A stretch of DNA of 64,000 bases from an uncultured Alphaproteobacteria bacterium (GTDB lineage: Bacteria; Pseudomonadota; Alphaproteobacteria; SP197), in assembly GCA_943787175.1 (NCBI GenBank), contig CALSLK010000021.1, positions 9,482-73,481 of the forward strand, written 5' to 3'. The stretch's first letter is position 1; each line of letters opens with the position of its first letter. Below are positions 4,696-61,598 of this stretch, one piece after another. Both the position numbers and the translations under genes were made by a program. The notes below the pieces were generated by a model, which saw only the letters and a list, made by a program, of their open reading frames with translations, was not told where the DNA came from and did no database searches.

Positions 4696-4703
4696 TCTGG
4701 AAG

Positions 4704-5402
4704 TCAGGAAGCCTCGCCGCCCTGGGCCAGTTTTTCAATGTGGCGCCGGTCGATGATGTAAAGTGTGCGGTGCCTGCGCTTCACAATACCGACGTTCGTG
4801 AGCTGACCGATCGCACGGGCTACGGTATCGGTTGTGGTTCCCGCCCAGATGGCGATTTCCTTGTGCATTGGAATCGTGGGGATTTGCCAACTACCATCCG
4901 CCGAAGGGGAAGGCTCGGCCATCCTCAGAAGCTCGTCGTAGACACGCTGAATGCCCGACTTGGTGCTGAGATCAACTACGCGATCATTGGAACCGCGCAT
5001 GATGCGCGCAAAGTCCCGCAGCAGGTTGATTGCGACACCCGAATCCAGTCGCAAGACCTCAAGCATGACAGCTCTGGGAACCGATGCGGTAATGCATGCG
5101 ACGACCGCAACAATCGTTGCTGAGCGTTCACCACCATCTACCAGAGAGAGTTCACCGAAATGCCCTCCGGCATCAACGTCGGCAAAAGCAATCTCCTGGC
5201 CCGATGCAGCGTGAATAAGAACACGCGCAGACCCTTCGACCAGAAAAATAAAATCCGTAGCCGGGTCACCGCGCACACAAATTTGCTCGCCTGCCTCATA
5301 CGCGTACCAGCTCGATGCCGCCTCAACGCCAGCAACAGTCCTGCTTTGGACCTCTTCAAGGACACTGCAATGTCCCAATCTCCGAGGTTCTGCTTCCTGC
5401 AT
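4704..5402 (-). CDS. Crp/Fnr family transcriptional regulator
   Basis: 232 aa with a cNMP-binding beta-roll (DFIFLVEGSARV, GELSL) and a C-terminal HTH (TTDTVARAIGQL). Confidence 0.8.
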   Translation of the reverse strand: MQEAEPRRLGHCSVLEEVQSRTVAGVEAASSWYAYEAGEQICVRGDPATDFIFLVEGSARVLIHAASGQEIAFADVDAGGHFGELSLVDGGERSATIVAVVACITASVPRAVMLEVLRLDSGVAINLLRDFARIMRGSNDRVVDLSTKSGIQRVYDELLRMAEPSPSADGSWQIPTIPMHKEIAIWAGTTTDTVARAIGQLTNVGIVKRRHRTLYIIDRRHIEKLAQGGEAS

Positions 5403-8936: not shown

Positions 8937-9536
8937 TCATCCGTCTAGCTTGAGACCTTTGAGCGCAGCGAAGGGATTATCACGCTTAGGAGCTTCAACC
9001 TCAACATATCTGGGGTCGATCGAGGCACCCTTGGCACGCGGGTAAGGATCAAGTGCCAGGCCCAACTGTTCTGCGACCATCTTGCCAAGGTCGATGACGT
9101 CATCGACCAGAGGTTCAGGCGGATCTTCACTGCCGGGATCAAGATCGATGGTCTCGTCGAACTCACCAGATGGGCGCACATCAGGGTCAAATGCACGTGT
9201 GTAAGTTTCCTCAACCGTCAGCTTCAGAGGCTGTAGAGAAACGACACAGGTCTGTTCAATGCGCGCCGTCACTTCCGTTTCGGCAAGAACCTGTCTGCCA
9301 TGGCGTTTCAGAAGGATGTCGGCATGCAGGCTTTCAACCCCGGCAATAGAAAACCAACCCGCCAAAGCCTGACATTCTTCGGCATCAGCATCGATGGATT
9401 GTCTCTGGTAATCACCATCTTCCAGATCGAGGACGCTGACTAGACGTGAAAATTCTATGTCGTTCATGAAGACTATCCGCTGCAAGGCGAAACCATGTTC
9501 CGCGTCGTCTGATTCAATATGGAGGTTTGTCGTCAA
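8937..9536 (-). CDS. yceD: YceD/DUF177 family protein (large-subunit rRNA/L32 accumulation)
   Basis: 199 aa acidic protein in the conserved position upstream of rpmF. Confidence 0.7.
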   Translation of the reverse strand: MTTNLHIESDDAEHGFALQRIVFMNDIEFSRLVSVLDLEDGDYQRQSIDADAEECQALAGWFSIAGVESLHADILLKRHGRQVLAETEVTARIEQTCVVSLQPLKLTVEETYTRAFDPDVRPSGEFDETIDLDPGSEDPPEPLVDDVIDLGKMVAEQLGLALDPYPRAKGASIDPRYVEVEAPKRDNPFAALKGLKLDG

Positions 9537-9539
9537 ACC

Positions 9540-10157
9540 TCAATCTGTGGATGCATGGCCAGGACTGACAAGCGTCAGATCACCAGCCAATAGTGCATCG
9601 TCAGGCTGACTGTCCAGATGCGCTTCCTGGCCACGGACATAGGCCTCAAAGACAGTCAGATGATCTTCCTTGGCTTCGACGGTTCCGAACGTATTGCGCC
9701 GCAGGGCCTCTTTAAGGGCATCAGACTCCGCTCCATCAGCCAAAGCGGCGTTGAGCGCGGCTGCGCGCCCGTAAAAGGCCTGGCCCATCTGCTTGATGCG
9801 CGAACCGACTTTGAGGTCACCCACCCCGATCTGGCGCAACGCGCTGTCAAAGTCTGCGAACATCAGGTCAAACAGGGATTGTGCCGCCTCTGCACCACCC
9901 TCCTCGATCCGACGCAGGCGGCGCATAATCAGCAAACCGTGCAACACATTCATTTCGAAGCGGCCATCCAATGTGTCGGGCACACCAAGATCGGCAAAGA
10001 ACACAGGTTCACGCGCCCGCTCGACCATGGTGTCATAGAGCCGGTGTGTGGATTCATCGAAACGCGAACGAGAAAGCAGGCGTCGAAGCATGGCGTCATG
10101 GGCCCGATAGCGGTATGGAAGCGTGTCTGATTGACAGGGAGCATCGGCTCCCGGCAT
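9540..10157 (-). CDS. ubiquinol-cytochrome c chaperone (Cbp3-like) family protein
   Basis: 205 aa. Position between bamE and yceD matches the alphaproteobacterial arrangement. Family assignment from recall, not searched. Confidence 0.55.
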   Translation of the reverse strand: MPGADAPCQSDTLPYRYRAHDAMLRRLLSRSRFDESTHRLYDTMVERAREPVFFADLGVPDTLDGRFEMNVLHGLLIMRRLRRIEEGGAEAAQSLFDLMFADFDSALRQIGVGDLKVGSRIKQMGQAFYGRAAALNAALADGAESDALKEALRRNTFGTVEAKEDHLTVFEAYVRGQEAHLDSQPDDALLAGDLTLVSPGHASTD

Positions 10158-10197
10158 CGTCCGCGCCTTGATTAGGTGCTAGAGGCCATGGGGTCAA

Positions 10198-10710
10198 ATG
10201 ACACAGCAGGGTAAGAGGATGCAGATTTCCAAAAAGGTAGCGCTGAAGGAAGGTGGTCGGAGCTTGATGATCGCCGTCGCCCTGGCTGCTGGCCTTGCTG
10301 CCTGTGAGCCGCGGATATCCACGCATGGCTATGTTCCCAATGAGCAGATCCTCAACCGTATCGAGCCCGGTCTTCATAACCGCCTCGAGGTGGCCCAGTT
10401 TCTTGGCACGCCGTCGTCGACGGCACTTTTTGGCGCAGAGACATGGCTTTACATCACAGCGCGGCGTGAAGAGTACGCGTTCTTCCGGCCCGAGATCATC
10501 GACCAAAGCGTCATCGCCATCGCGTTTGACGAGCGCGGAATCGTCCAGGAGATCGCGGGTTACACGCTGGAGGATGGCCTTATCGTCGATCCCATCTCAC
10601 GCACGACTCCGACCTACGGCAAGCAGCTGGGGCTGCTCGAGCAGCTGGTTGGCAATGTCGGACGCTTCAACACCGAAGGGCAGTCTGGTGTGTCGCTTCC
10701 CGGCCAGTAG
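10198..10710 (+). CDS. bamE: outer membrane protein assembly factor BamE (SmpA/OmlA lipoprotein)
   Basis: Signal peptide with lipobox LAAC, then SmpA_OmlA domain (HGYVPNEQILNRIEPGLHNRLEVAQFLGTPS). The true start may be an internal Met. Confidence 0.75.
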   Translation: MTQQGKRMQISKKVALKEGGRSLMIAVALAAGLAACEPRISTHGYVPNEQILNRIEPGLHNRLEVAQFLGTPSSTALFGAETWLYITARREEYAFFRPEIIDQSVIAIAFDERGIVQEIAGYTLEDGLIVDPISRTTPTYGKQLGLLEQLVGNVGRFNTEGQSGVSLPGQ

Positions 10711-10834
10711 GGAACACAGCTCAGTTCTCACATGAACAAACCACACCAAAATATTGTTTTAATTATGTTTTTATACTTATATCGTCTTTAGCTCAGAGGT
10801 CGATCAATCGATTGAGCATGGCTGGAAGTTCAAC

Positions 10835-10876
10835 AAAAAACGCCCGGTGGAAAAACTCCACCGGGCGCTTTCTTGT
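10835..10876. terminator. bidirectional rho-independent terminator between convergent bamE and hppA
   Basis: GC hairpin CGCCCGGTGGaaaaaCTCCACCGGGCG flanked by an A6 run on one side and a T-rich run on the other. Confidence 0.6.
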
Positions 10877-10922
10877 GCATTACCGGGGCCAACAAACCGT
10901 TGGCTCCAGGCGATCAAGCCAA

Positions 10923-13001
10923 TCAGTTACCGAGCACTGCGAGCATCAGCAGAGCAACGATATTGATGATCTTAATCATCGGGTTGATGGCAGGCCCGGC
11001 AGTGTCCTTATAGGGGTCACCGACGGTATCGCCCGTCACAGCCGCATGATGGGCATCAGAGCCCTTACCGCCGTGGTTGCCGTCTTCGATGTACTTCTTG
11101 GCATTATCCCAAGCGCCACCGCCCGAGGTCATCGACAGGGCCACAAACAGACCTGTAACGATGGTACCCAGAAGCATAGCACCCAGCGAAGAGAACGCTG
11201 CTGTCTGGCCGGCAATCGCCCAGATGATCAGATACAGAGCGATCGGAGCAAGGACCGGCAGCATCGACGGGATGATCATCTCCTTGATCGCCGACTTGGT
11301 CAGCAGGTCAACAGCACGGCTGTAATCAGGCTTGCCTGTGCCTTCCATGATGCCAGGGATCTCGCGGAACTGACGACGCACCTCGGTGACCACGGAACCG
11401 GCTGCACGACCGACCGCCTGCATGGCGAGCGAACCGAACAGGTAAGGCAGCATGCCGCCGATGAAGAGGCCGACCACCACATAAGGATCCGACAGCTTGA
11501 AGGTGACATCAAGGTCTGGGAAGTAGTGGGTCAGATCCTCGACATAGGCCGCAAAGAGAACCAGAGCGGCCAGACCGGCAGAACCAATGGCGTAACCCTT
11601 CGTCACGGCCTTGGTTGTGTTGCCCACAGCGTCGAGGGCATCGGTGGTCTTGCGAACGTCAGCAGGCAAATCGGCCATTTCGGCGATACCACCAGCGTTA
11701 TCCGTCACCGGACCGTAGGCATCCAGCGTCACAACAACACCGGCCACGGCCAACATGGTGGTGACGGTAATGGCGATGCCGAAGAGGCCGGCCAGCAGAT
11801 AACCGATGATGATACCAGCAGCGATCACGATGACCGGGGCCGCTGTGGCTTCCATGGAAATCGCCAGACCCTGGATCACGTTGGTGCCGTGACCCGTGGT
11901 CGAGGCCTGCGCGATGATCTTGACCGGACGATACTCCGTGGAGGTGTAATACTCCGTGATGTAGATCAGAAGACCTGTGATCACGAGGCCCAGGACACCA
12001 CAGAAGAACATGCTCCAGCCCGTGAAGGTGATCGCACCAACCGTAAGTTCCGTATTGAGGCCAACCATCACTTCCGTGACCGGAATGAGGAGGATGGCCG
12101 AAATCACCGCCGTAGCAATGAAACCTTTGTAGAGGGCCCACATGATGTTCTGGCTGCCGCCGCTGAGCTTCATGAAGAAGTTGCCAACAACGGTACCCAG
12201 AATGCAGACGCCGCCCAGAACCAGCGGGAAGGCCATCATGGTGGTCTGGGTTTCACCTGTGAAGAAAATCGACGCCAGAAGCATCGTGGCAACAAAGGTC
12301 ACGGCATAGGTCTCAAAGAGATCCGCCGCCATACCAGCGCAGTCACCCACGTTATCGCCAACGTTATCGGCGATCACGGCGGGGTTGCGGGGGTCATCTT
12401 CTGGAATACCAGCTTCAACCTTGCCCACCAGATCGGCGCCGACATCAGCACCCTTGGTGAAGATACCGCCGCCCAGGCGTGCAAAGATTGAAATCAGCGA
12501 GCCACCGAAGCCCAGGGCAACCAGTGCTTCCACAGTCTCGCGCTGCGCAACTCCGATCTCCAGAAGGACGACGTAGTAGCCCGCCACGCCCAACAGGCCC
12601 AGACCGACGACCAGAATGCCCGTGACCGCGCCAGCGTTCACGGCAACATCCAACGCCTTTTCGATGCCTGTCCGCGCAGCTTCAGCCGTACGCACATTGG
12701 CGCGGACCGAAACAAGCATGCCGATGTAACCGGCAGCACCCGAAAGGATGGCGCCAATGGCAAAGCCGATTGCCTGGCTTACGCCAAGAAGAACAATCAG
12801 CACGACGAAGATGACAGCGCCAGCAATTGCAATCGTCAGATACTGACGGTTCAGGTAGGCCTGAGCGCCTTCCTGAATGGCGCCTGCAATTTCCTGCATG
12901 CGCTCGTTACCCGCCGGTGCAGCAACAACCTTACGTACGGCATAGACGCCATAGGCAAGTGCCACCACGCCGCAGGCAATGGCGAAATACAAAGATTCCA
13001 T
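10923..13001 (-). CDS. hppA: membrane-bound proton-translocating pyrophosphatase (K+-insensitive H+-PPase)
   Basis: 692 aa polytopic protein with typical H+-PPase segments ([42 protein letters not shown]). Confidence 0.9.
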
Positions 13002-52158: not shown

Positions 52159-53334
52159 CTACTCCGCTGCCTGTGCGACAGGCGGCGGACCACCTTCCAG
52201 TGCCTGCATGACCAGCATGTGAAAGTGATGCACGGCGTGTTCGCTGATATGCGTGCGGTCGCGGTCAACGATGAAGCGACCGCGATCATAGCCGCGTGAC
52301 TTCAACCCCTGGTGCACGCTCTCGCACAGCGCAATGTCTTCGGGCTGGAGAACGTCGATGGTGTAATCGATGGCTGACTGCGACTGCTCCGCTCAGCTTC
52401 GCCACCCAAGCGCGTGCCAGTGCAGGTGTTCCAGGCAGCCCTTCAGGGCCGTCCGGCATCATCTGCAGGGTCATCAGGTTGGGCTCGCCCGGCATCAGCC
52501 AGATCGTCAGGTTGGGCCAGACGAAGTACCCGGCGTACCCGAAATCGACGTCGCCCGGCTCGAAAGTCATAGGCCGTATTCTGGTTCGAGTGCGGCATGT
52601 CGGAGGTCTGGGCTGACCAGTACTGATGCGTCTTGTTGCGATAGGTCGGCATCGCCACCAGGTCAACGAAGGCCGGGTGGGCCGGTTCGCAGTGGTAACA
52701 CTCCTGGAAGTTGTCGATCACGACCTTCCAGTTGGCCTTGAGATGAAAGTCGCGCCCGACGGCAAACCCAAGCTGCCCCGCGCGCGGCATCCAGCGCAGG
52801 ATGTCGTCCTCAAGCCCCGCGTACTGCTCGGCAAAGGCCGGCGCATCGGCATCGAGGTTGACGAAGACCAGGCCCAGCATGGTGTCGACCCGGACCTGCT
52901 TGAGGCCGAACTCGGATTTGTCGAAGCCATCCACGTTTTCGCAGCCCCGCGCGGTGCGCAGCTTGCCGTCGAAGTCATAGGCCCAGGCGTGATAGGGGCA
53001 GACCATGGTGAGTTTGAGCTTGCCCTCGCCCGAGAGGATGCGGTGCGCCCGGTGCTGGCAGACGTTGTAGAACGCCCGGACGTTCTCCATCGCGGCCACG
53101 CACCAGCGCAATGCTCTCGTCGGCCAGTTCAACGGTCTTGTAGCTGCCCGGTTCGGCAACCTGGCTTTCGTGGCCGACGAAGATCCACGACTTCGCGAAG
53201 ATGGCGTCCTGCTCCTCGGCATAGATCGCCGGATCCGAATAGTAGCGTGATGCCATCGTGTAGGACTTTGACGGGTCATCATGCAGGCCACCGGGCAACG
53301 GGCCATAGAGCTTTTCAGAACGCATCACGGGCAC
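52159..53334 (-). pseudogene. Rieske [2Fe-2S] oxygenase alpha subunit (GbcA/CntA/Stc2-like), split over at least three frames as assembled
   Basis: N-terminus YYSDPAIYAEEQDAIFAKSWIFVGHESQV, Rieske centre CQHRAHRI...CPYHAW, and C-terminus EDIALCESVHQGLKSRGYDRGRF each lie in a different frame. Confidence 0.7.
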
Positions 53335-53427
53335 TCCTAGGGTTCGCCAACAACGTAGGATTCCAGGGATTTGCGAACAACCGACATTGCTGTGGTCAAA
53401 CCCTTACAAAAACTCAATAATTGAGAA

Positions 53428-54332
53428 ATGTCAGAGCGCCTACCCTCCCTCAACGCCCTGCGTGCCTTCGAGGCCGTTTCCCGTCACGGTTCCATCGCGC
53501 GGGCCGCCGACGCGCTGAACGTGACCGCAGGTGCCGTGAGCCGCATGATCAAGACCCTCGAGGATGACCTGGGCGTACGCCTCCTGGAGCGTGAAGGCCG
53601 TGGCATCGCCCTCACACCAGCCGCTCAGGCCATGGTTCCCAGGCTACAGGCAGGCTTCAATGAGATGCGTGGAGCAATCGCAAGTTTGCGCAAGACAAGC
53701 GGAGAACGCCCGCTCTCGGTCGCCGTCGAGCCTGTATTCGCGTCAGGGTGGCTGGTCTCGCGCCTGGACAGCTTTCGCCAGGTCGCGCCCTCCATCGATG
53801 TCCGGATCGACGCAACCCGTGCGGAACCGAGTCTGTCAGACCGGACAATCGATATCGCAATCGATACGGGTTTGCCGATCATCTCGAAACCGATCAGGTC
53901 AAGCTGATCGACGAGGATATCTTTGCGGTGTGCAGCCCCGAAACCCTCGACCGGCATGGCCCGATCCGTTCCCTGGACGACCTCGCGAACCATACGCTTC
54001 TCCATTACGAAGATGCGCCACAAAGCTGGATGTGGCCGTCCTGGCAGGATTGGCTTGAGGAGCTTGGCGTCACGGGACTCGATGCATCACGCGGCCTGCG
54101 CATGGTGGCCGGTCAGGCAATCATGGAGGCAGCGCGAAGCGGTCAGGGCATTGCCCTGGCCAACACGTCCATCGCAAGGGATGACCTCGCCACTGGTCGT
54201 CTGGTGCAACCCCACCCGGCCAGAATCCAGACAGACGCAGGTTATGTCCTGACTACCCGAAAAGACGACCGGGAGCGGGCCGATATTGCAGCGTTCCGCG
54301 ACTGGCTGGTTGCAGCCATTCGCGTGACCTGA
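53428..54332 (+). CDS. LysR family regulator (GcvA-like), one-base deletion frameshift near 53862
   Basis: HTH LNALRAFEAVSRHGSIARAADALNVTAGAVSR; second frame continues IRYGFADHLETDQVKL...; restoring one C in ATC-CGA joins them. Confidence 0.75.
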
Positions 54333-54435
54333 ACACAACAGGGGCCCGGGATTAATCCCGGACCCCTGCCTGGTGTGTCCTGCGACCGTTCGGAGGCTTG
54401 CGCCTCTTCGTTCGACAGAACCCTGTCAGGAAACC

Positions 54436-54606
54436 TTAGTTGGCGTCGGGGCGCGGACCCGCTCCGTGGCAATATCGTGCCATGTCTGGAATCTGGCAAC
54501 GGTCGATACCCAGATCGTTGAGCTGGCCGTCGGAGAGTCCGTTGAGCTCGCGACGAAGGTTCTTCATCTGCCAGCCGTTGCGGAGCTTGCGAAGGAGTTG
54601 ATTCAT
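54436..54606 (-). CDS. DUF1127 domain-containing small protein
   Basis: 56 aa; RRELNGLSDGQLNDLGIDRCQI, typical DUF1127/YjiS. Confidence 0.7.
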   Translation of the reverse strand: MNQLLRKLRNGWQMKNLRRELNGLSDGQLNDLGIDRCQIPDMARYCHGAGPRPDAN

Positions 54607-54669
54607 AACCGTATTCCTAGTGACGCCTGACGGCCGCACCATATGCGCGACCCTGTGTCAGCCAGATAG

Positions 54670-54694
54670 CGTTGGCGCACGCATTGCGCCAACG
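54670..54694. promoter_or_regulatory. perfect 10-bp inverted repeat CGTTGGCGCA-cgcat-TGCGCCAACG upstream of the DUF1127 gene
   Basis: Seen directly in the sequence, about 65 nt upstream of the DUF1127 start; could be an operator or a 5'-UTR hairpin. Confidence 0.3.
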
Positions 54695-54747
54695 TCATGA
54701 ACGCGGAACACCCATACCGAAACTGCATGGGTGCGGCCACGCATCGG

Positions 54748-56829
54748 TCATGATTTCAAAAGCGTAATCAAGGCGTCCACGGCGGTCACGCCCTTCTGGT
54801 GCACCAGAAGTGGATTGACGTCACATTCCCCGATCAGGTCACCCAGAGCCGCGACCATCTGGGAAAGGTCCGAAATCGTCTGTGACAAGGCCTCGCGATC
54901 CCCGGCAGGGCGCCCACGGACGCCATCCAGAAGGGCTGACGCACGCAGGGTCCGCACCAGGGCATCCGCCTCGTCGGGGGAAACCGGCGGAACGAAGGTG
55001 ACAGCATCATTGAGAACCTCGACCAGCACCCCGCCCATGGCGACAGTCATGACCGGGCCAAAGGTTACATCGTTCTTCATGCCGACCAGCATCTCGATGC
55101 CAGACTGTGCGGTTTCCTGCACCAGGACACGGGGACCAAGGGCTTTCGACATCGTCTGGTAAGCCGCAAGCAACGCCGTCTCATCGCCAAGTCCCAGAAC
55201 GACGCCACCCACATCGGTCTTGTGCAGGACCTTGGGATCCGCCGTCTTGAGCGCCGCGGGATAACCGGTCTCGCGCGCCGCCGCAGCAACCTCTTGGGCG
55301 GACTCGGCAACGATGCTTTGCGTGCACCATCGCTCCGAAATCTGCGATCAGCGCCAGCATGGCCTCGGGCGCAAGGTCTCCGGACGTCAGTCTGGAGCGC
55401 CAGGTCTCCACCAGAGCCTTGTCGAGGTCGCTCTTGTATTCATGGCTTTCCATGCGCCGCTTGTGCCAGGCCAGAAAGTGCCCCATGGCCTTCAGCCCGG
55501 TTTCGGTTCCCATCAGGACGGGAATGCTCCTTCTCACGCAGCCGGGCCGCTTCGCCGGGATCGATCGTCGAGGTCAGGTTGCCCAGCATGACACAGGGTT
55601 TGTCCGTGCTGTCGTGCACGGCTTCCAGCGCCTCGGTCGAGGCAAACAGAATCACGCGGTTCGACACCATGTTGGTGGCAAAGGCCACCAGGCCCACTTC
55701 CGGCGCATCACCCAGAATGCGCGTAATTTTGGGAGTGACGGCAAGGCCGCCCTCCCCCCAATAATCGACGGGGTTTTCCGGATCCAGGCCCGGATCGAGC
55801 ACCTCGGCCAGGGCCGCTCTTGTTCCGGCGCTGAAGTTCGTCAGCAGAACGCCGAAATCAGACGCAAGATCGGTGATCAACTGGCGCTCACCACCGGAAT
55901 CCGTCTGGATACCGACGGAATCGGCTGCCGGCGTACGCCCGCACGACACCAGTTCCAGCGTGTCGAGCATCTCATCGAGCGTGTGGACGCCAATGACGTT
56001 GTGACGGCGGAAGACGGCTTCATAGACCCGGTCATCCCCGGCCAGCGCACCGCTGTGGGAAAGCGCGAACTCCCGCGCCTTGTCGGAACGTCCCAGCTTT
56101 AACCCGACAACAGGGATGCCTCTGGTGTTGGCCGCCTCAATCGCTCCAAGGAACTGCTCACCGTCACGGACGGTCTCGAGCACCATGGCGATCGCCGAGG
56201 TCTCGGGACGTGAGACCAGATACTCGACATAGTCCCCGACACCCGTGGCAAGCTCGAAGCCCATGGAGACGCCGATGCTGAAACGCATCTGGCGCAGATT
56301 GCCGCCCATGCCCGACCAGGTTGAACCACTGTGTGAAAGCAGACCGATGCTTCCCGGGATATCCAGGTTTGGCAGATCCGACATGGAAAGCCGAACGTCA
56401 TCGGCCGTGTTGAAGAAGCCCATGCAGTTTCCGCCACAGACCGCCATGCCCGCTTCCCGCGCGATGGCACCGACCCGCGCGCGCAAGGCAACCCCGTCGT
56501 CCTCCGGCTCATAAAGACGTCCGAGAAGTACCATGCCCTTCACGCCGGCACGGGCGGCATCTTCAACGGCCGCCTCGATCCGGTTGTCGCCTACGGCCAT
56601 CACAGCGCAGTCAGGAGTTTCGGGGATTGCTTCCAGGGACGCAAAGCAGGTGCGCCCCTCGACCTCCTCGTAACCGGGGTTTACGGCAACAAGATCGCCG
56701 GAAAACCGTGGCCCGGCAGCATGGCGGATCACGTTGTTGCCGACCGCGCCAGACCTGGGCGTGGCCCCCCACGATCGCCACGCGTCTGGGCGCCAAAAGC
56801 GCCGTCATTGCCTCTTTGGCCACCGTCAT
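54748..56829 (-). pseudogene. ADP-forming acyl-CoA synthetase (NDP-forming, fused alpha/beta type), split over about four frames as assembled
   Basis: CoA-binding N-terminus MTVAKEAMTALLAPRRVAIVG, ligase-CoA/flavodoxin-like middle (VAVNPGYEEVEG...) and ATP-grasp tail (...DVNPLLV) lie in different frames. Total about 694 codons. Confidence 0.65.
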
Positions 56830-56908
56830 GCTCTACATCCCGGGAAAACTGAACTAGAAGGCAGGCATGGAAGCCATGTGACACCACATGGTCAAGGGCC
56901 AGAAGCGC

Positions 56909-57640
56909 ATGACGGGCACTTTGTTTCTGATCGGCACGCCGATCGGCAATCTCGACGACATCTCCAAGCGGGTTCTCGACACCCTGGGTTCGCTGGATGC
57001 GCTTGGCGTGCGAGGACACCACGACGTACGCGCAAGATCTATGAACACTTTCAGTCTCTCGAGTCCGCGCACCATCTTCTCCTGCAACGACCACAACGAG
57101 GACCGCGCCGTTTCGCGCATGGCTGGGCCTGTTGCGCCAGGGCTTGCGGGTGGGCCTCGCCACCGATGCAGGCATGCCCGGCATCAGCGACCCCGGCTTC
57201 CGCGCCGTCCAGATGGCCGAGGAAGAGGGATTTGCCGTCGAGGTGATCCCCGGCCCCACGGCCGTGGCCTCCGCCCTGGCCGTTTCCGGCCTTTCGGCCG
57301 CCAGCTACACCTTCAAGGGCTTTCCTCCGCGCAAATCCGGCAAGCGCCGCAACTTCCTGGCCGCCGATGCCCACGCCGACCACACCCTGGTGCTGTTTGA
57401 GTCGCCCCACCGCCTGGGCGCGCTCCTGGCCGATGCCCTGGCCGTGCTGGGTGACCGGCGCACGGCGGTCTGCATTGAACTGACCAAGATGTATCAGGAA
57501 ACCGCGCGCGGCTGGCTCTCCGACCTCGCCAACCGCTTTGCCCAGGAAGAGCCCAAGGGCGAAGTCACGGTCGTGATCGCCGGCAACAACCGCAAGTTCA
57601 TGCGCGAAACACCGGTCGAGGACGAAACCGCTCCTGGCTT
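56909..57640 (+). pseudogene. rsmI: 16S rRNA (cytidine1402-2'-O)-methyltransferase RsmI, several frame changes as assembled; 3' end uncertain
   Basis: MTGTLFLIGTPIGNLDDIS, EDTRRTRKIYEHF, NDHNEDRAVSRM and LATDAGMPGISDPG...ELTKMYQE...VTVVIAG lie in three frames. Confidence 0.7.
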
Positions 57641-57651
57641 GAAGACGACGC

Positions 57652-58743
57652 ATGATCAGGACGCTCAAGACCCGCCGCGGCCCCCTGCAGCTCCCGGCCT
57701 TCCTGCCGGACGGCACACGCGCCGTGGTGAAGGGCCTGGACGCGGCCGACCTCGCCCAATGCGGGATCGAGGCCATGATGGTCAACAGCCTCCATCTCGC
57801 CACGCGGCCCGGCACCTCGACCGTCAAGGCGCTGGGCGGCGTGCATGCCTTCATGGGCTGGAAGGGCGTCACGGCCTCGGACTCCGGCGGCTTTCAGGCC
57901 TGGTCCATGGCCGCCTCCGGCGCCGGACTTGGGCAGCGTGACGGACAAGGGTTTTGTCTATCGCCATGAAAAGAATGGCAAAAAGCACCTCCTGACGCCC
58001 GAGAAGTGCATCCGGCGCCAGCTTGAGCTCGATACCGACATCCTGTTCTGTCTGGATCAGTGCACCCATCCCGATGATTCCCCCGAAACCCAGCGTGATA
58101 GCGTGGAACGCAGCCTTGCCTGGGCGCGCCGCTGCCGTGACGAGTTTACGCAGCGCGGGTCGGTGAACCCGGTGACGGGGACGGCACCAACCGCCCCCTC
58201 CTGTTTGCCGTCGTGCAGGGAGGCAACGATCCCGATTTGCGGCGGCGTTGTGCCGATGAACTGGCTGCTATGGGCTTTGACGGTTTCGGCTTTGGCGGCT
58301 GGCCCATCGGTGATGATGGCAAGCTGACCGATATGGTTGCTTTGACGGCTGAATGTCTGCCAACCCAAGCGCCCAAACACGCCCTGGGGATTGGAAAACC
58401 CGACAATCTGGTAGCAGCATGGCGTGCAGGTTACCGCATGTTCGATTGCGCTTTGCCAACTCGGGATGCGCGCAGAAAGCGTTTATTCATTACATCAGAT
58501 ATTTCGTTTAATAGTGCGAATAATAAGAGTTTTTTTGACGTACTTTATATGGAAGATGAACGCCATTCACGCGATAGCGCGCCGCTTGACGGCAGGATTG
58601 ATCCCGATGGTCCCTCACGCGCCTATCTGCATCACCTGTTCAAGGTGAAGGATTCCTCGGCCGAGCGATTGGCAACACGCCAGAACCTCAAATTCTACGC
58701 CTGGATGATTGAGCGCCTGCGCGAGGAAGAGGCTGATGGCTGA
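57652..58743 (+). pseudogene. queuine tRNA-ribosyltransferase (Tgt)-family protein lacking the CxCxxC zinc motif; two frame changes as assembled (about 57935 and 58160-58195, the latter in G/C runs)
   Basis: PAFLPDGT...VKGL...SLHLATRPG, SDSGGFQAW, FCLDQC, VVQGGNDPDLRRRC...GFDGFGFGG, RMFDCALPTRDARR, SRAYLHHL...QNLKFY are all Tgt hallmarks. The zinc-motif position is occupied by an AT-rich in-frame segment. Confidence 0.7.
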
Positions 58744-59539
58744 TCCTCGCGAGACGCTTCTTGCCGGGCTCATGACGTCGTCGAAGTACCGACATTTGGC
58801 TCCCGCAGCCCTGGAACGCACGACCGACTGGGCCCTGGCGCGCCACAGAAAACCTGGCGATGCGCTCAAGGCCGCCAAACGCAAGTTGCACCAGGGATTT
58901 GGCGCCTACTTCGACCCCGGAGCATTGGAGGCCGTGCATCGCTTGCTCGACCAGGCAGATGAGACCACTGACCTTCAGGACCTCTCCACGCGCATCCTGG
59001 CACTCCATAGCTCGAGTGCCGAGCGTTTGCCGGTCATGGACGCGTTTTATACCGCGCTATGGGCTGAAATCGGCACACCTGGGCACATTCTGGACGTTGC
59101 ATCGGGTCTCAACCCCTTCGCGCTTCATGCCATGCATCTACCGCCCGAATGCATCTATACCGCGCTGGAGATCGACAACAGACTGGTCGAAGCCGCCAAC
59201 CGTTTTCTTTTGCTCAGCAACCAGCCAGGCAAGGCAATCTGGGCCGACGTCGTGAGCAGCCTCGATGATTACGATGCCGATGTCGCCCTGGTGCTCAAGA
59301 CCCTGCCTTGCCTTGAGCAGGAACAATCGGGCGCAGCCATTGACCTGCTCAAAGCCCTCGCGGGCACTCCCATCATCGTGGTGAGCTACCCCGTGCGTTC
59401 ACTGGGCGGCCGGGAAAAGGGCATGCGCGAGACCTATCTGGAGCAGATCACCACATTATCGGCACAAATCAGCCGTACCATGACGGTTCTACCCATTGAG
59501 GACGAATTGGTGACAGTCCTGCGGCACGCGCCATTGTGA
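58736..59539 (+). CDS. FmrO-family 16S rRNA (guanine1405-N7)-methyltransferase homologue (RmtB/ArmA-like)
   Basis: Intact 268 aa ORF. Recalled alignment to RmtB: SSKYRHLAP / SKKYRALCP; KRKLHQGFGAY / RTRLHGICGAY; LHSSSAERL / LHASTKERL; ILDVASGLNPFAL / VLDIACGLNPLAL; LVLKTLPCLEQEQSGAAIDLL...VSYPVRSLGGREKGM / LIFKLLPLLEREQAGSAMALL...VSFPTRSLGGRGKGM. Overlaps the Tgt-like stop by 8 nt. Confidence 0.75.
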   Translation: MADPRETLLAGLMTSSKYRHLAPAALERTTDWALARHRKPGDALKAAKRKLHQGFGAYFDPGALEAVHRLLDQADETTDLQDLSTRILALHSSSAERLPVMDAFYTALWAEIGTPGHILDVASGLNPFALHAMHLPPECIYTALEIDNRLVEAANRFLLLSNQPGKAIWADVVSSLDDYDADVALVLKTLPCLEQEQSGAAIDLLKALAGTPIIVVSYPVRSLGGREKGMRETYLEQITTLSAQISRTMTVLPIEDELVTVLRHAPL

Positions 59540-59597
59540 TCGATCCCGGCTTGGCGGTCCTATTGGTGATGTTGCATAATGGCTCCAACAAACTGAA

Positions 59598-60173
59598 ATG
59601 CGGAGAAACACGGTGAAGCGATTCCTTGCAGCAGCATTCGTTCTGGCCCCCGGATTGGCTTTTGCCGACCTTGCCGGTAGCCCATTGGTCATGAATGGCG
59701 ACACCCTACAGTTTGGTGACCAGGAAGTGTCTCTCTACGGCGTTCACGCGCCGATGATTACGCAAACCTGCGGCGAATCCGATGCCGTGTGGTCTTGTGG
59801 CTGGGATGCCGCCATGTATCTCGAAGAGGTCATCGGCGAGGCCGAGGTGGTTTGCACTGATGTCACCGAAATGGATGAAGACCACTACACGGGCCGCTGC
59901 AGCGCCAACGGCGAAGATCTTGCCGGGATCATGGTCGATGCTGGCTTGGCCGTTGCGGATGAGGACATGGGTGAAGATTACGCCTCGCGCACCATGACGG
60001 CCTCCGATGACGGCGTCGGCATGTGGTCGGGCCCGTTCGTGGACCCCGTCGTCTATGCCGAGTACGGCGGCTGCTCCTGCACGGCACGCAAGAAGGCGAT
60101 GATGGATACCGCTGACCTGATCAAATCCATGAACGCGGAAAACGAGGCGACTGCGGGCGAAACGGCTGACTAG
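59598..60173 (+). CDS. secreted thermonuclease (SNase-like) family protein
   Basis: Signal peptide, then an SNase-like pattern (MNGDTLQFGDQEVSLYGVHAP...C..V.E.D.D.Y.RCSANGEDLAGIMVDAGLA). Confidence 0.5.
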   Translation: MRRNTVKRFLAAAFVLAPGLAFADLAGSPLVMNGDTLQFGDQEVSLYGVHAPMITQTCGESDAVWSCGWDAAMYLEEVIGEAEVVCTDVTEMDEDHYTGRCSANGEDLAGIMVDAGLAVADEDMGEDYASRTMTASDDGVGMWSGPFVDPVVYAEYGGCSCTARKKAMMDTADLIKSMNAENEATAGETAD

Positions 60174-60189
60174 CCTGTCAGGCCAACGC

Positions 60190-60960
60190 ATGGATGATTG
60201 GACGCTCGAAAACCGTGTTGCGGTCGTCACTGGTGCGAGCAGCGGCATAGGTGCTGCGACAGCGCAATTGCTGAAGAAGCGCGGCGCTCACGTACTGGCC
60301 ATCGCCCGCAATGCTGAACGTCTTGAAGCCCTGCGCGACAGTTCCGGCGTGGACATTCTGGCACTGGCCCTTGGGTCACCCCGATCCTGCGAAACAGCCA
60401 TGGCCCAGGCACGCAAGGAGGGGCCGGTTGCGATCTTGGTAAATTGCGCCGGGCGGGGCGGCTATCTCGATCGACCAATTTGGGAGCAGACCAGCGAAAA
60501 CTGGCGCGCCACCCAGGAAACCAATCTAGACGTGCCCTTCGAGCTGACCAAACTCGCCGCCCAGGATATTCACCGCCAAGGATGGGGTCGCGTCGTGATG
60601 ATCAGCTCCACGGCAGGCGAAGTTGGCGCGCCTTCCCAACCAGCTTACTGCGCCTCCAAACACGGCATCATCGGCCTGATGCGCGCGACAGCCATGGACC
60701 TTGCGCCACATGGCGGAACCTGCAACGCGGTTCTGCCAGGTTGGGTAAGGACGGAAATGGCGGAACAGGACGCCATTGCTGAAGCCAATACCCGCGACAT
60801 GACCCCCGAAGAGGTCTGGATAGAGCGTGATGCGCAAAGCCCTGCCGGAAGAGTTGCAAGGGCCGAAGAGGTCGCTCAAATGGTCGCCTTTTTAGCCAGC
60901 CCGGCTGCCAGCGCCGTCAACGCACAGACAATCACCGTCTCCATGGGAAGTGTCTGGTAG
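60190..60960 (+). CDS. SDR family oxidoreductase
   Basis: TGASSGIG Rossmann motif; catalytic YxxxK (YCASK). Confidence 0.8.
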   Translation: MDDWTLENRVAVVTGASSGIGAATAQLLKKRGAHVLAIARNAERLEALRDSSGVDILALALGSPRSCETAMAQARKEGPVAILVNCAGRGGYLDRPIWEQTSENWRATQETNLDVPFELTKLAAQDIHRQGWGRVVMISSTAGEVGAPSQPAYCASKHGIIGLMRATAMDLAPHGGTCNAVLPGWVRTEMAEQDAIAEANTRDMTPEEVWIERDAQSPAGRVARAEEVAQMVAFLASPAASAVNAQTITVSMGSVW

Positions 60961-61004
60961 GCTCCAACTCCCAAGACGCGTCATCAATCGAAAGCAGCCT
61001 CGCC

Positions 61005-61598
61005 ATGATCTATCTGGAATTCATCGATTGGAATCGCTCCATTCCAGCCGATATCTTCAGGCTTTTGAGCAAGCAGGATCAATGGGCGTCAGATCAGGAC
61101 CGCAAGGTTATCAACGTTGGTCGGCACAAGGGTATTGGCGGGCATCCCACTTACCTCTCGGGTTGGCAGATCAGGGATTTTGCACGTCTGGATGAATGGG
61201 AAAGCCATTTCAAGAGCGCTGAAGCTGCCATGGATGTCGCGGAAAAGGCGACGTTTCAGGCCATGGATTTCCGCTATTGCGGCCTCTACGACGAACTCAA
61301 GCTGACCGACTTGCCCGATGAAAACCTTCACGTCGTCGAGTATTTCAACCCGGCCCCGGACATGAACAACCAAGAATTCATGAGCGGTTTGGAACAGCGC
61401 GAGTCAATCGAAGAAGCTGGCAAGCTTGCGGTCGCCCTCCGCAGGATAGGCATGTTGGGGCCAGACCCTGCGGCAGTTGTGATTTGGAGTTTTCCTGACT
61501 TCAGCAGCATTGAAGGCTTTGCGCGTCGTCCGCCAGCGGCGGGCCAGAGGCCAGCCAGCACCGGGCTGTTCAAGAACATCGGATTCGAACTGATGTAA
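61005..61598 (+). CDS. hypothetical protein
   Basis: 197 aa ORF with protein-like composition; no family recognised from sequence. Confidence 0.4.
   Translation: MIYLEFIDWNRSIPADIFRLLSKQDQWASDQDRKVINVGRHKGIGGHPTYLSGWQIRDFARLDEWESHFKSAEAAMDVAEKATFQAMDFRYCGLYDELKLTDLPDENLHVVEYFNPAPDMNNQEFMSGLEQRESIEEAGKLAVALRRIGMLGPDPAAVVIWSFPDFSSIEGFARRPPAAGQRPASTGLFKNIGFELM

What the first reader, a model, noticed from the sequence alone, without database searches (positions are those of the whole stretch)
56909..59539. Operon coupling two helix-44 16S rRNA methyltransferases (RsmI and an Rmt/FmrO-like m7G1405 enzyme) around a zinc-less Tgt-like transglycosylase
rsmI, a Tgt-family gene and an RmtB/ArmA-like methyltransferase lie head to tail on one strand with no intergenic space; the Tgt-like stop overlaps the rmt-like start by 8 nt. 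RsmI modifies C1402 and Rmt-type enzymes modify G1405, which are neighbouring nucleotides in the h44 decoding centre. The Tgt-like enzyme keeps the catalytic Asp regions but has lost the zinc subdomain that canonical Tgt uses. It may therefore be a dedicated RNA-modification module, for example an rRNA-directed guanine transglycosylase or a housekeeping h44 methylation system, rather than a stray resistance gene plus ordinary tgt. I do not know of a described system with this composition. The module is inference from gene content and arrangement.
Basis: partly seen in the sequence, partly recalled or inferred. Interest (0 to 1): 0.75.

Follow-up and report, generated by a model that had tools for sequence, protein, structure and literature searches.

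The report
Conserved rsmI–tgt-like–rmt ribosome-modification operon
An uncultured alphaproteobacterium carries a three-gene operon: two enzymes that methylate neighbouring bases of the ribosome's decoding site, and an unusual relative of the tRNA base-swapping enzyme Tgt; this operon is widespread in environmental bacteria, is the native form of the cassettes that spread the aminoglycoside-resistance genes rmtD, rmtE and rmtG, and the job of its Tgt-like enzyme has never been tested.

Summary
rsmI (56888-57655), a Tgt-family gene (57652-58743) and an Rmt/FmrO-family gene (58736-59539) lie head to tail with 4-nt and 8-nt overlaps. The Tgt-like protein keeps its catalytic Asp residues and has lost all four zinc ligands.

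The triplet is not a chance neighbourhood:
- Intact, syntenic copies occur in related alphaproteobacteria.
- Among 67 informative non-redundant metagenome Rmt loci, 62 have this Tgt-like gene directly upstream, and 28 of 41 with enough flank read RsmI-Tgt-Rmt.
- TGT+FmrO and RsmI+TGT fusion proteins exist.
- The plasmid genes rmtD2, rmtE2 and rmtG carry the same Tgt-like gene upstream. rmtG sits in rsmH-tgt-rmtG-rsmI', an arrangement already noted in the resistance literature.

The Tgt-like proteins form a distinct subfamily. The canonical Leu-Ala "peptide switch" is invariably Trp-Pro. Zinc loss is a peculiarity of the alphaproteobacterial clade only.

The frame breaks are seven insertions relative to three intact relatives, and neighbouring genes are broken too. 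Substitutions are strongly third-position biased, so the breaks are probably sequence errors.

Function is inferred, not shown: intrinsic m7G1405 methylation plus Cm1402 methylation, with the Tgt paralog's RNA target (tRNA G34 or helix 44) unresolved. Verdict: real, conserved, partly known as an arrangement, functionally unexplored.

The parts
56888..57655 (+). rsmI, the 16S rRNA C1402 2'-O-methyltransferase gene. Its frame is broken in the window by insertions near 57001, 57021, 57048, 57128 (+1 each) and 57636 (+2).
   Evidence: The pieces hit TIGR00096 and PF00590. The intact orthologue L005:232-987 scores 193.5 against a cut-off of 167.9. Indels were mapped against L005, L012 and L013.
57652..58743 (+). 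Tgt-like transglycosylase gene of the GGWP subfamily, zinc-less clade. Its frame is broken by +1 near 57929 and +2 near 58151.
   Evidence: PF01702 hits all three pieces. Z. mobilis TGT matches at E 1e-60. An AF2 model of the near-orthologue P0001 has pLDDT 95.9 and TM 0.87 to TGT. Indels were mapped.
58736..59539 (+). Rmt/FmrO-family 16S rRNA methyltransferase gene, predicted m7G1405 activity. Intact, 267 aa from the ATG at 58736.
   Evidence: PF07091 152.7 bits. NF000466 gives 204 bits, below its cut-off of 250. The key RmtC residues H54, Y60, K204, R241 and M245 are conserved.
57652..57655 (+). ATGA overlap of the rsmI stop (corrected frame) with the tgt-like start.
   Evidence: Sequence. 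The same overlap is seen in L005.
58736..58743 (+). ATGGCTGA: an 8-nt overlap of the tgt-like stop with the rmt start, suggesting translational coupling.
   Evidence: Sequence. The same 8-nt overlap type occurs in the rmtG cassette (ATGCGTGA). Overlaps of -8, -4 and -1 are the modes in 70 loci.
58294..58305 (+). Codons for GGWP, the subfamily signature that replaces the canonical Leu-Ala peptide switch of TGT.
   Evidence: W-P is present in 120 of 120 subfamily proteins and in the plasmid copies. The role of the switch is described in PMC3660597.
58585..58614 (+). LDGRIDPDGP, the segment that replaces the CxCxxC zinc motif.
   Evidence: Alignment to E. coli Tgt and to subfamily members. The segment is predicted with pLDDT 94-98 in the model.

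Best explanation
This is the native chromosomal form of a widespread operon that modifies the ribosomal decoding centre: rsmI, a specialised Tgt paralog, and rmt. The three genes are co-transcribed and translationally coupled through 4-nt and 8-nt overlaps.

Inferred from family membership and conserved residues:
- The Rmt protein docks on the mature 30S subunit, flips G1405 of helix 44 and methylates N7. This would give intrinsic resistance to 4,6-disubstituted deoxystreptamine aminoglycosides.
- RsmI 2'-O-methylates the nearby C1402. Arm/Rmt-type enzymes are reported to block this step, so co-expression plausibly keeps the two modifications balanced.

The Tgt paralog keeps the catalytic aspartates but has lost the Leu-Ala/Glu peptide switch that lets canonical Tgt bind guanine and then preQ1. 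I therefore infer that it still exchanges a base for a 7-deazaguanine-type precursor, with altered base or RNA specificity.

Its RNA target is not shown. My estimates are tRNA G34 about 0.4, helix 44 of 16S rRNA about 0.3, and something else about 0.3.

ISCR/IS91-type elements captured pieces of such operons to produce the plasmid genes rmtD, rmtE and rmtG. In the window the breaks in rsmI and tgt are most likely sequence errors.
For: Family assignments.

Rmt residues. The equivalents of RmtC K20, R50, H54, Y60, S107, K204, K236, R241 and M245 are conserved (read against bioRxiv 10.1101/2023.03.13.532395).

Vertical, syntenic conservation. Intact genes occur in L005 (Rmt 85% identical), L006 (54%), L012 and L013.

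Cross-phylum conservation. Armatimonadota has RsmI-TGT-FmrO. A locus whose Tgt-like protein NCBI names Hydrogenedentes has the same order. Loci whose Tgt-like protein is named Latescibacterota have TGT-FmrO.

Counts. 62 of 67 non-redundant Rmt loci have the Tgt-like gene upstream, and 28 of 41 read RsmI-Tgt-Rmt. L060 and L090 read RsmH-RsmI-Tgt-Rmt.

Fusions. TGT+FmrO is a 628-aa protein seen in two assemblies and preceded by rsmI. RsmI+TGT is a 710-aa protein.

Plasmid cassettes. tgt-rmtD2, rsmH-tgt-rmtG-rsmI' and 'tgt-rmtE2 all lie next to IS91/ISCR transposases.

Subfamily signature. Peptide-switch chemistry: PMC3660597.

7-deazaguanine supply genes nearby. QueE-like in L008, L027, L042 and L095. 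QueD in L072 and L086. QueT in L108.

Interference of Arm/Rmt enzymes with RsmI and RsmF: PMC12406665 summarising Lioy 2014, Cubrilo 2009 and Gutierrez 2012.

Purifying selection. Differences from L005 by codon position are rsmI 6/6/46 and tgt 14/9/107.
Against: - No biochemical evidence exists for any of the three activities in this organism.
- The Rmt protein is below NCBI's generic Rmt cut-off (204 against 250).
- As given, rsmI and tgt are not translatable, so only rmt is demonstrably intact.
- About 7% of Rmt-like loci lack the Tgt-like gene (L019, L031, L039, L052 and others). RmtB, RmtC, RmtF and ArmA confer resistance without it, so Tgt is not needed for m7G1405-type resistance.
- Divergent GGWP-type Tgt genes occur without an adjacent FmrO (L106, L107).
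- I could not check whether these genomes also hold a canonical tgt/queA.
Confidence: 0.6

Rival explanations
1. The Tgt-like enzyme is simply these organisms' tRNA-guanine(34) transglycosylase, a lineage variant of the queuosine pathway. It sits with rsmI and rmt only because translation-apparatus genes are often co-transcribed. Its benefit would be tuning of decoding through Q34, which is known to matter under aminoglycoside stress.
For: - Full-length similarity to bacterial TGT: E 1e-60 and TM 0.87.
- The catalytic Asp residues and the PTRxAR motif are kept.
- Some members pass the TIGR00430 cut-off (L008, 332 bits).
- QueE-like, QueD and QueT genes lie nearby in some loci.
- Divergent GGWP members occur without Rmt.
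- tgt is required for aminoglycoside tolerance in V. cholerae (PMC11703503, listed).
Against: - The peptide switch and Glu235 used by every canonical Tgt are replaced in all 120 members.
- The window clade also lacks the structural zinc.
- No queA was found in 656 kb of loci.
- The protein is fused to FmrO and to RsmI, both 30S-directed enzymes.
- It is closer to Tgt-like proteins of other phyla (52-59% identity) than to the tested canonical bacterial Tgt, including alphaproteobacterial Z. mobilis TGT (33-39%).
Confidence: 0.4
2. rsmI and the Tgt-like gene are genuine pseudogenes in this strain, and only rmt is functional. The 'operon' here would be a decaying remnant.
For: There are seven frame-breaking insertions in the sequence as given, and in-frame stops follow them.
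Against: - All seven differences are insertions, and they sum to a multiple of three in each gene.
- Unrelated neighbouring genes are also frame-broken: an ACS-like gene with 3 frame changes, a LysR gene and a Rieske oxygenase gene. Genes from 58.7 to 64 kb are intact.
- Substitutions relative to L005 are concentrated at third positions, more so than in the intact rmt. This is not expected after enough time to collect seven indels.
Confidence: 0.12
3. The adjacency is a hitch-hiking artefact: a horizontally acquired resistance gene landed next to housekeeping genes, with no functional link.
For: Rmt genes are mobile in clinical settings. The GC content of 56-58 kb is somewhat higher than that of the flanks.
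Against: - Order, orientation and overlapping stop/start codons are conserved across phyla.
- The flanks are syntenic between the window, L005 and L006 even though the Rmt proteins are only 54% identical.
- No IS elements or integrases lie next to the triplet.
- Fusion proteins exist.
Confidence: 0.03

Closest known systems
rmtG cassette on Klebsiella/Enterobacter plasmids (rsmH - tgt - rmtG - truncated rsmI, next to ISVsa3/ISCR2)
   Same: A GGWP-type Tgt-like gene lies directly upstream of the Rmt gene with an 8-nt stop/start overlap. Genes for C1402 methyltransferases lie alongside. The arrangement is described as an operon in the literature (PMC9311965).
   Different: - The window copy is chromosomal, with syntenic flanks and no IS elements.
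- rsmI is upstream, not downstream, and no rsmH is present.
- The Rmt proteins are only about 31% identical.
- The window's Tgt-like protein lacks the zinc site that the rmtG-linked copy keeps.
rmtD/rmtD2 and rmtE2 genetic contexts (tgt-like - rmt next to IS91-family/ISCR transposases)
   Same: The same Tgt-like/Rmt gene pair is present. In the rmtE2 context the Tgt-like gene is 5'-truncated by the capture event.
   Different: No rsmI is retained there. These are mobilised fragments in Enterobacterales, and the zinc motif is present.
Canonical bacterial tRNA-guanine transglycosylase (E. coli Tgt, Z. mobilis TGT)
   Same: The fold matches (TM 0.87, rmsd 2.1 A). The catalytic Asp102/156/280 equivalents, Gln203 and the PTRxAR motif are kept.
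   Different: - Leu231-Ala232 is replaced by Trp-Pro, and Glu235 is not conserved.
- Glu157 is replaced by His/Gln/Tyr, and Met260 by Leu.
- An extra insert precedes the zinc region.
- In this clade all four zinc ligands are lost.
- The score is below the TIGR00430 cut-off.
- The gene is never next to queA in the loci examined.
Acquired and producer m7G1405 methyltransferases (RmtB, RmtC, ArmA, Sgm, FmrO)
   Same: The protein is an FmrO-family member with the 30S-docking and catalytic residues conserved.
   Different: - Identity is 27-35%, and the score is below NCBI's Rmt cut-off.
- The gene is embedded in a housekeeping-like operon.
- rmtB and rmtF, in the contexts examined, lack the Tgt-like partner.
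DpdA (a Tgt-family paralog retargeted to DNA), as a precedent for retargeting. This comparison rests on my own knowledge and was not tested here.
   Same: It is a Tgt-fold enzyme that inserts a 7-deazaguanine into a nucleic acid other than tRNA position 34.
   Different: The window protein is much closer to bacterial Tgt than to the archaeal-type enzyme (TIGR00432 gives 69 bits against a cut-off of 350). No dpd genes are nearby.

Membership tests
RsmI (TIGR00096, 16S rRNA C1402 2'-O-methyltransferase) | Equivalog HMM score above the curated cut-off | tested here: met
   The intact orthologue L005 scores 193.5 against 167.9. The window pieces score 127.1 and 22.7 bits separately because of the frame breaks.
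RsmI (TIGR00096, 16S rRNA C1402 2'-O-methyltransferase) | Uninterrupted reading frame in this window | tested here: not met
   There are five insertions relative to L005, L012 and L013. They are probably sequence errors.
RsmI (TIGR00096, 16S rRNA C1402 2'-O-methyltransferase) | Cm1402 formation on 30S subunits | not testable with these tools
   Needs MS or primer extension of 16S rRNA.
Bacterial tRNA-guanine(34) transglycosylase Tgt (PF01702 / TIGR00430) | TGT domain and fold | tested here: met
   PF01702 hits all pieces. The AF2 model has TM 0.87 to Z. mobilis TGT.
Bacterial tRNA-guanine(34) transglycosylase Tgt (PF01702 / TIGR00430) | Equivalog score above the cut-off (306.75) | tested here: not met
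   The L005 orthologue scores 266.3 and the rmtD-linked copy 291.2. E. coli Tgt scores 637.
Bacterial tRNA-guanine(34) transglycosylase Tgt (PF01702 / TIGR00430) | Catalytic aspartates (Z. mobilis D102, D156, D280) | tested here: met
   DSGGFQ, LDQC and MFDC are present. These residues are conserved in 119-120 of 120 subfamily members.
Bacterial tRNA-guanine(34) transglycosylase Tgt (PF01702 / TIGR00430) | Structural zinc site (CxCxxC ... His) | tested here: not met
   All four ligands are replaced in the window, L005, P0001 and P0003. L006, P0004 and P0005 of the same clade keep the distal His but lack the three Cys. The site is present in the wider subfamily.
Bacterial tRNA-guanine(34) transglycosylase Tgt (PF01702 / TIGR00430) | Leu231/Ala232 peptide switch with Glu235, which accommodates guanine and then preQ1 | tested here: not met
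   GGWPIGD replaces GGLAVGE. Trp-Pro is found in 120 of 120 members. The role of the switch is described in PMC3660597.
Bacterial tRNA-guanine(34) transglycosylase Tgt (PF01702 / TIGR00430) | Exchange of G34 for preQ1 in tRNA Asp/Asn/His/Tyr | not testable with these tools
   Needs complementation of a tgt mutant or an in vitro exchange assay.
Rmt/FmrO m7G1405 16S rRNA methyltransferases (PF07091 / NF000466) | FmrO domain above the Pfam gathering score | tested here: met
   152.7 bits against 27, covering profile positions 2-253 of 255.
Rmt/FmrO m7G1405 16S rRNA methyltransferases (PF07091 / NF000466) | NCBIfam generic Rmt equivalog cut-off (250 bits) | tested here: not met
   204.1 bits. The L005 orthologue scores 200.6.
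Rmt/FmrO m7G1405 16S rRNA methyltransferases (PF07091 / NF000466) | Residues essential in RmtC: His54, Tyr60, Lys204, Arg241, Met245 and the SAM-binding residues | tested here: met
   The window has H52, Y58, K188, R226, M230 and S93, and Glu at the aligned Asp160 position. R211 is replaced by Q195 and N248 by T233.
Rmt/FmrO m7G1405 16S rRNA methyltransferases (PF07091 / NF000466) | m7G1405 formation and resistance to 4,6-DOS aminoglycosides | not testable with these tools
   Needs expression, MIC testing and rRNA analysis.
tgt-like/rmt cassette as known from rmtD, rmtE and rmtG contexts | GGWP-type Tgt-like gene immediately upstream of rmt on the same strand, with stop and start overlapping or abutting | tested here: met
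   The window has an 8-nt overlap. The same is seen in L001, L002, L099 and in 62 of 67 metagenome loci.
tgt-like/rmt cassette as known from rmtD, rmtE and rmtG contexts | Flanking ISCR/IS91-type capture element | tested here: not met
   No transposase ORF lies next to the triplet. The flanks are syntenic with L005 and L006.

The most novel reading that the evidence does not exclude
The GGWP Tgt paralog is not a tRNA enzyme. It would be a 30S/16S rRNA-directed transglycosylase working with the Rmt methyltransferase on helix 44.

One possible scheme: it excises the N7-methylated, cationic G1405 (a good leaving group that needs no NH donor at N7) or a neighbouring G-U step such as G1494-U1495, and installs a 7-deazaguanine base. 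That would be the first base-exchange modification of ribosomal RNA. It would also be an overlooked second component of the rmtD/rmtE/rmtG resistance cassettes.

This reading is consistent with four findings: the loss of the guanine/preQ1 peptide switch, the TGT+FmrO and RsmI+TGT fusions, operon partners that are all helix-44 enzymes, and precursor-supply genes (QueE-like, QueD, QueT) nearby.
Probability: 0.3. Interest if true: 0.9.

Novelty: new variant of a known kind. Interest (0 to 1): 0.65.

Why it matters
Three acquired pan-aminoglycoside resistance genes (rmtD, rmtE, rmtG) travel with a Tgt-like gene whose function nobody has tested. This window shows the native, intact-in-relatives form of that cassette.

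The pairing is ancient, spans several phyla, and is sometimes fused into one protein. That points to where these resistance genes came from: housekeeping-like decoding-centre operons of uncultured environmental bacteria.

It also raises a question that can be tested directly in E. coli with existing plasmids. Does the Tgt paralog modify tRNA, or the ribosome itself? Does it change resistance level, spectrum or fitness cost? If it acts on rRNA, it would be a new class of rRNA modification.

Tried and rejected
- Promoter and terminator scan of 56500-60300: counts were at the shuffle expectation, so it was uninformative.
It was redone with five environmental sequences.
- The primary papers on the rmtD environment (Doi 2008) and on the rmtG operon (Passarelli-Araujo 2019) are not held, so I relied on the review PMC9311965 and on my own reading of the plasmid records.
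- Literature searches for FmrO+tgt and for intrinsic m7G1405 with queuine transglycosylase found nothing relevant.
- The ORF downstream of rmtE2 is a lipoprotein-like fragment, not RsmI.
- The 243-aa gene after the divergent Tgt in L106 is not FmrO (Pfam found nothing; hhalign probability 0.4%).
- I looked for a second tgt, rmt, rsmI or queA in the window and found none.
- I could not test whether the host genomes also carry a canonical tgt/queA.
- I considered DpdA/ArcTGT membership and rejected it (TIGR00432 gives 69 bits against 350).
- I considered a non-catalytic QTRT2-like accessory role and rejected it because the catalytic Asp residues are invariant.
Full report
WHAT IS IN THE WINDOW

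Between 56888 and 59539 on the + strand lie three genes. The first, rsmI, gives pieces that hit TIGR00096 and PF00590. The second is a Tgt-family gene, and its three pieces all hit PF01702. The third is an intact 267-aa FmrO/Rmt-family gene: PF07091 gives 152.7 bits, and NCBIfam's generic Rmt model gives 204 bits, below its cut-off of 250.

The Tgt-like stop and the rmt start overlap by 8 nt as ATGGCTGA at 58736-58743. After frame correction the rsmI stop overlaps the tgt start as ATGA at 57652-57655. No second tgt, rmt, rsmI or queA occurs in the 64 kb.

FRAME BREAKS

I aligned the window to three independent relatives that carry intact genes: L005, L012 and L013, at 87-89% nucleotide identity. 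The window has seven insertions and no deletions. They are +1 near 57001, 57021, 57048 and 57128, +2 near 57636, +1 near 57929 and +2 near 58151.

The upstream neighbours are also broken. An ADP-forming acyl-CoA synthetase-like gene shows three frame changes against its L006 orthologue. A LysR gene and a Rieske oxygenase gene have their domains split over two frames. Every gene from 58.7 to 64 kb is intact.

Differences from L005 fall overwhelmingly on third codon positions. The counts are rsmI 6/6/46 and tgt 14/9/107, against 33/16/105 for the intact rmt. A gene that had drifted long enough to collect several indels should not look like this. I therefore read the breaks as local sequence error (about 0.85) and not as pseudogenisation (about 0.12). 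I did not survey 1-52 kb rigorously.

THE TRIPLET IS CO-CONSERVED

Relatives in genome collections have the same three genes, intact, with the same overlaps and largely the same flanks. L005 is an alphaproteobacterial MAG whose Rmt is 85% identical. L006 is the alphaproteobacterial chromosome OY282363, with Rmt 54% and Tgt-like 76% identical.

Outside the Alphaproteobacteria:
- RsmI-TGT-FmrO occurs in an Armatimonadota genome (L011).
- The same order occurs in a locus whose Tgt-like protein NCBI names Hydrogenedentes (L098).
- TGT-FmrO sits next to thrS-infC-rpmI-rplT in three loci (L008, L095, L096). The Tgt-like protein of L008 is named Latescibacterota by NCBI.
- A Dormibacterota MAG has rmt convergent with rsmI and no tgt (L007).

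A pattern scan of metagenome contigs returned 80 Rmt-like loci, which form 69 clusters at 90% identity. Of the 67 informative clusters, 62 have a Tgt-like gene directly upstream on the same strand. Of the 41 with enough flank, 28 read RsmI-Tgt-Rmt and 2 read Tgt-Rmt-RsmI. L060 and L090 read RsmH-RsmI-Tgt-Rmt. The Tgt stop and Rmt start usually overlap, with modes at -8, -4 and -1 nt.

Seen from the Tgt side, all seven close subfamily members whose contigs I looked up (52-95% identical to the query) have FmrO next door. L005 and L006 show the same arrangement. Among three more divergent members (about 40-44% identical), one has QueT-TGT-FmrO and two have no FmrO.

FUSIONS

A 628-aa protein seen in two NCBI assemblies (P0123, P0271) joins a complete TGT domain to a complete FmrO domain. 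Its gene is preceded by rsmI (L105). A 710-aa singleton (P0143) joins RsmI to TGT. These fusions indicate that the Tgt-like protein works together with the two helix-44 enzymes.

LINK TO CLINICAL RESISTANCE GENES

Plasmid records show the following contexts:
- tgt-rmtD2.
- rsmH-tgt-rmtG followed by a 99-codon ORF that is the N-terminus of RsmI cut off by ISVsa3.
- A 5'-truncated tgt-like gene directly upstream of rmtE2, next to an IS91-family transposase.

rmtB and rmtF lack the Tgt-like gene in the contexts examined.

[quoted passage not shown] The Kp13 genome paper notes a tRNA-ribosyltransferase CDS upstream of rmtG (PMC3904158). The arrangement is therefore known as genetic context. I found no paper that tests or discusses what the Tgt-like protein does.

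The window is a native chromosomal representative of the kind of operon from which such cassettes were captured. It is not the direct progenitor, because its Rmt is only 27-35% identical to the acquired enzymes.

THE TGT-LIKE PROTEIN IS A DISTINCT SUBFAMILY

It aligns end to end with Z. mobilis TGT at E 1e-60. An AlphaFold model of the near-orthologue P0001 is confident (pLDDT 95.9) and superposes on TGT with TM 0.87 and rmsd 2.1 A. The catalytic aspartates are essentially invariant.

The canonical GGL-A-VGE segment, however, is GGW-P-x-x-x in all 120 close homologues and in the rmtD- and rmtG-linked copies. The Glu235 equivalent is not conserved.

In canonical TGT the Leu231/Ala232 peptide flips. 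It shows its NH towards N7 of guanine and its C=O towards the aminomethyl group of preQ1, and Glu235 holds either state (PMC3660597). A proline at that position has no amide NH, so the switch cannot operate. This last step is inference from established structural knowledge.

In a search of 1.8 billion cluster representatives, the top 30 or so clusters carry GG[WY]P, and canonical GG[LV][AS]VGE takes over below about 240 bits. Full-length scores against NCBI's Tgt equivalog model are 266 (L005), 291 (rmtD-linked) and 332 (L008), against a cut-off of 306.75 and 637 for E. coli Tgt.

Zinc loss is confined to the alphaproteobacterial clade (P0001-P0024, the window, L005, L006). Elsewhere CxCxxC is kept. 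The zinc-less segment is modelled with high confidence. Zinc-lessness is a real but clade-specific variant, not the key to the module.

LINKS TO 7-DEAZAGUANINE SUPPLY

A QueE-like radical-SAM gene lies just upstream of the Tgt-like gene in loci of the thrS-linked type (L008-L010, L027, L042/L043, L095). QueD lies next to the pair in L072 and L086. QueT lies directly upstream in L108. No queA, queC or queF was found in 656 kb of loci. This suggests that the enzyme still handles a 7-deazaguanine precursor.

THE RMT PROTEIN

Aligned with RmtC, the window protein keeps the residues shown to be essential for 30S docking, h44 distortion and catalysis. The equivalents are K20->K17, R50->K48, H54->H52, Y60->Y58, S107->S93, K204->K188, K236->R221, R241->R226 and M245->M230. 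R211 and N248 are replaced. G1405 N7-methyltransferase activity is therefore a well-founded inference, but it is untested.

MECHANISM

Shown here:
- Gene content, order and overlaps.
- Conservation, fusions and the subfamily signature.

Inferred:
- Rmt makes m7G1405 on 30S subunits and gives intrinsic resistance to 4,6-DOS aminoglycosides.
- RsmI makes Cm1402. Its co-expression is sensible because ArmA is reported to block RsmI, and Sgm and RmtC to block RsmF, at neighbouring nucleotides (PMC12406665). RsmI and RmtC also dock on the same 16S rRNA surface (PMC13037946).
- The Tgt paralog performs a base exchange with altered specificity.

Its target is open. tRNA G34 is the conservative reading (about 0.4). 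Helix 44 itself is nearly as likely (about 0.3), given that all its operon and fusion partners are helix-44 enzymes and that the guanine-binding switch is gone. The remainder covers other RNAs or roles.

SIDE OBSERVATION WITH BEARING ON FUNCTION

In L104, from a 217-kb JGI contig, the Tgt-like gene lies divergent to an FmrO gene. They sit inside a cluster with a second FmrO, an APH-family kinase, an ABC exporter, a GT4 glycosyltransferase, a DegT aminotransferase, a PIG-L deacetylase, a Zn-dependent dehydrogenase, a GMC oxidoreductase and a class-III aminotransferase.

This gene set resembles a 2-deoxystreptamine aminoglycoside biosynthetic cluster. That resemblance rests on my own knowledge and is not tested. 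No 2-deoxy-scyllo-inosose synthase gene was seen in the 21 kb.

VERDICT

The 'dedicated module' reading is well supported. The 'undescribed' claim and the emphasis on zinc loss are not.

The window is a new, zinc-less chromosomal variant of an arrangement already recorded around rmtD, rmtE and rmtG. The interest lies in the unexplored Tgt paralog and in the origin of these resistance genes.

Noticed in passing
L104:1-21161 (JGI 3300080737, Ga0671491_0000015); Tgt-like gene at 10001-11161, FmrO genes at 9075-9887(-) and 3894-4769(-): The Tgt-like gene sits inside a cluster that looks like an aminoglycoside-type biosynthetic cluster with self-resistance genes. The cluster holds two FmrO genes, an APH-family kinase, an ABC transporter, GT4, DegT, PIG-L, a Zn-ADH, a GMC oxidoreductase, a class-III aminotransferase and a radical SAM gene. 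No DOI synthase gene was seen in the 21 kb.
   Followed up: partly
L105:4001-5887 (GCA_048633415.1), proteins P0123 and P0271: This is a TGT+FmrO fusion protein of 628 aa, preceded by rsmI. In its FmrO half the equivalents of RmtC His54 and Arg241, which are near-universal elsewhere, are Arg and Ala. In its TGT half FDC is FDG and GKP is ASP.
   Followed up: partly
P0143 (Logan SRR assembly, 710 aa): This is an RsmI+TGT fusion protein with a linker of about 130 residues. It is a singleton, so a sequencing artefact is not excluded.
   Followed up: partly
window 52443-56832: Three unrelated genes upstream of the operon are also split across reading frames: a Rieske ring-hydroxylating oxygenase gene (-), a LysR regulator gene (+) and an ADP-forming acyl-CoA synthetase-like gene (-). 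This suggests a stretch of low sequence quality of about 6 kb.
   Followed up: partly
L108:2490-4528; L008:3255-3905; L095:3334-3966; L072 and L086: Genes that supply queuosine precursors lie next to the TGT-FmrO pair in some lineages: QueT directly upstream, a QueE-like radical SAM gene, and QueD. queA was never seen.
   Followed up: partly
L007:4159-5655 (Candidatus Nephthysia bennettiae, Dormibacterota): The Rmt-like gene is convergent with rsmI, their 3' ends overlap, and no Tgt-like gene is present. The rmt-rsmI linkage therefore exists without Tgt.
   Followed up: no
window 58480-58560: A markedly AT-rich stretch lies inside the otherwise GC-rich Tgt-like gene. It encodes the subfamily-specific insert (ITSDISFNSANNKSFFDVLYMEDE), which is the only part of the model with lower confidence (pLDDT about 72).
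   Followed up: no
L014 (JGI contig Ga0055584_100732181): A 1-kb metagenome contig encodes an Rmt protein 100% identical to the window's. The same population is therefore present in that sample. The contig does not reach the frame-break sites.
   Followed up: no
window 60190-61598: Two genes, an SDR and a 197-aa ORF with no Pfam hit, lie between the secreted 191-aa protein gene and the thiolase gene. They are absent from the otherwise syntenic L005.
   Followed up: no
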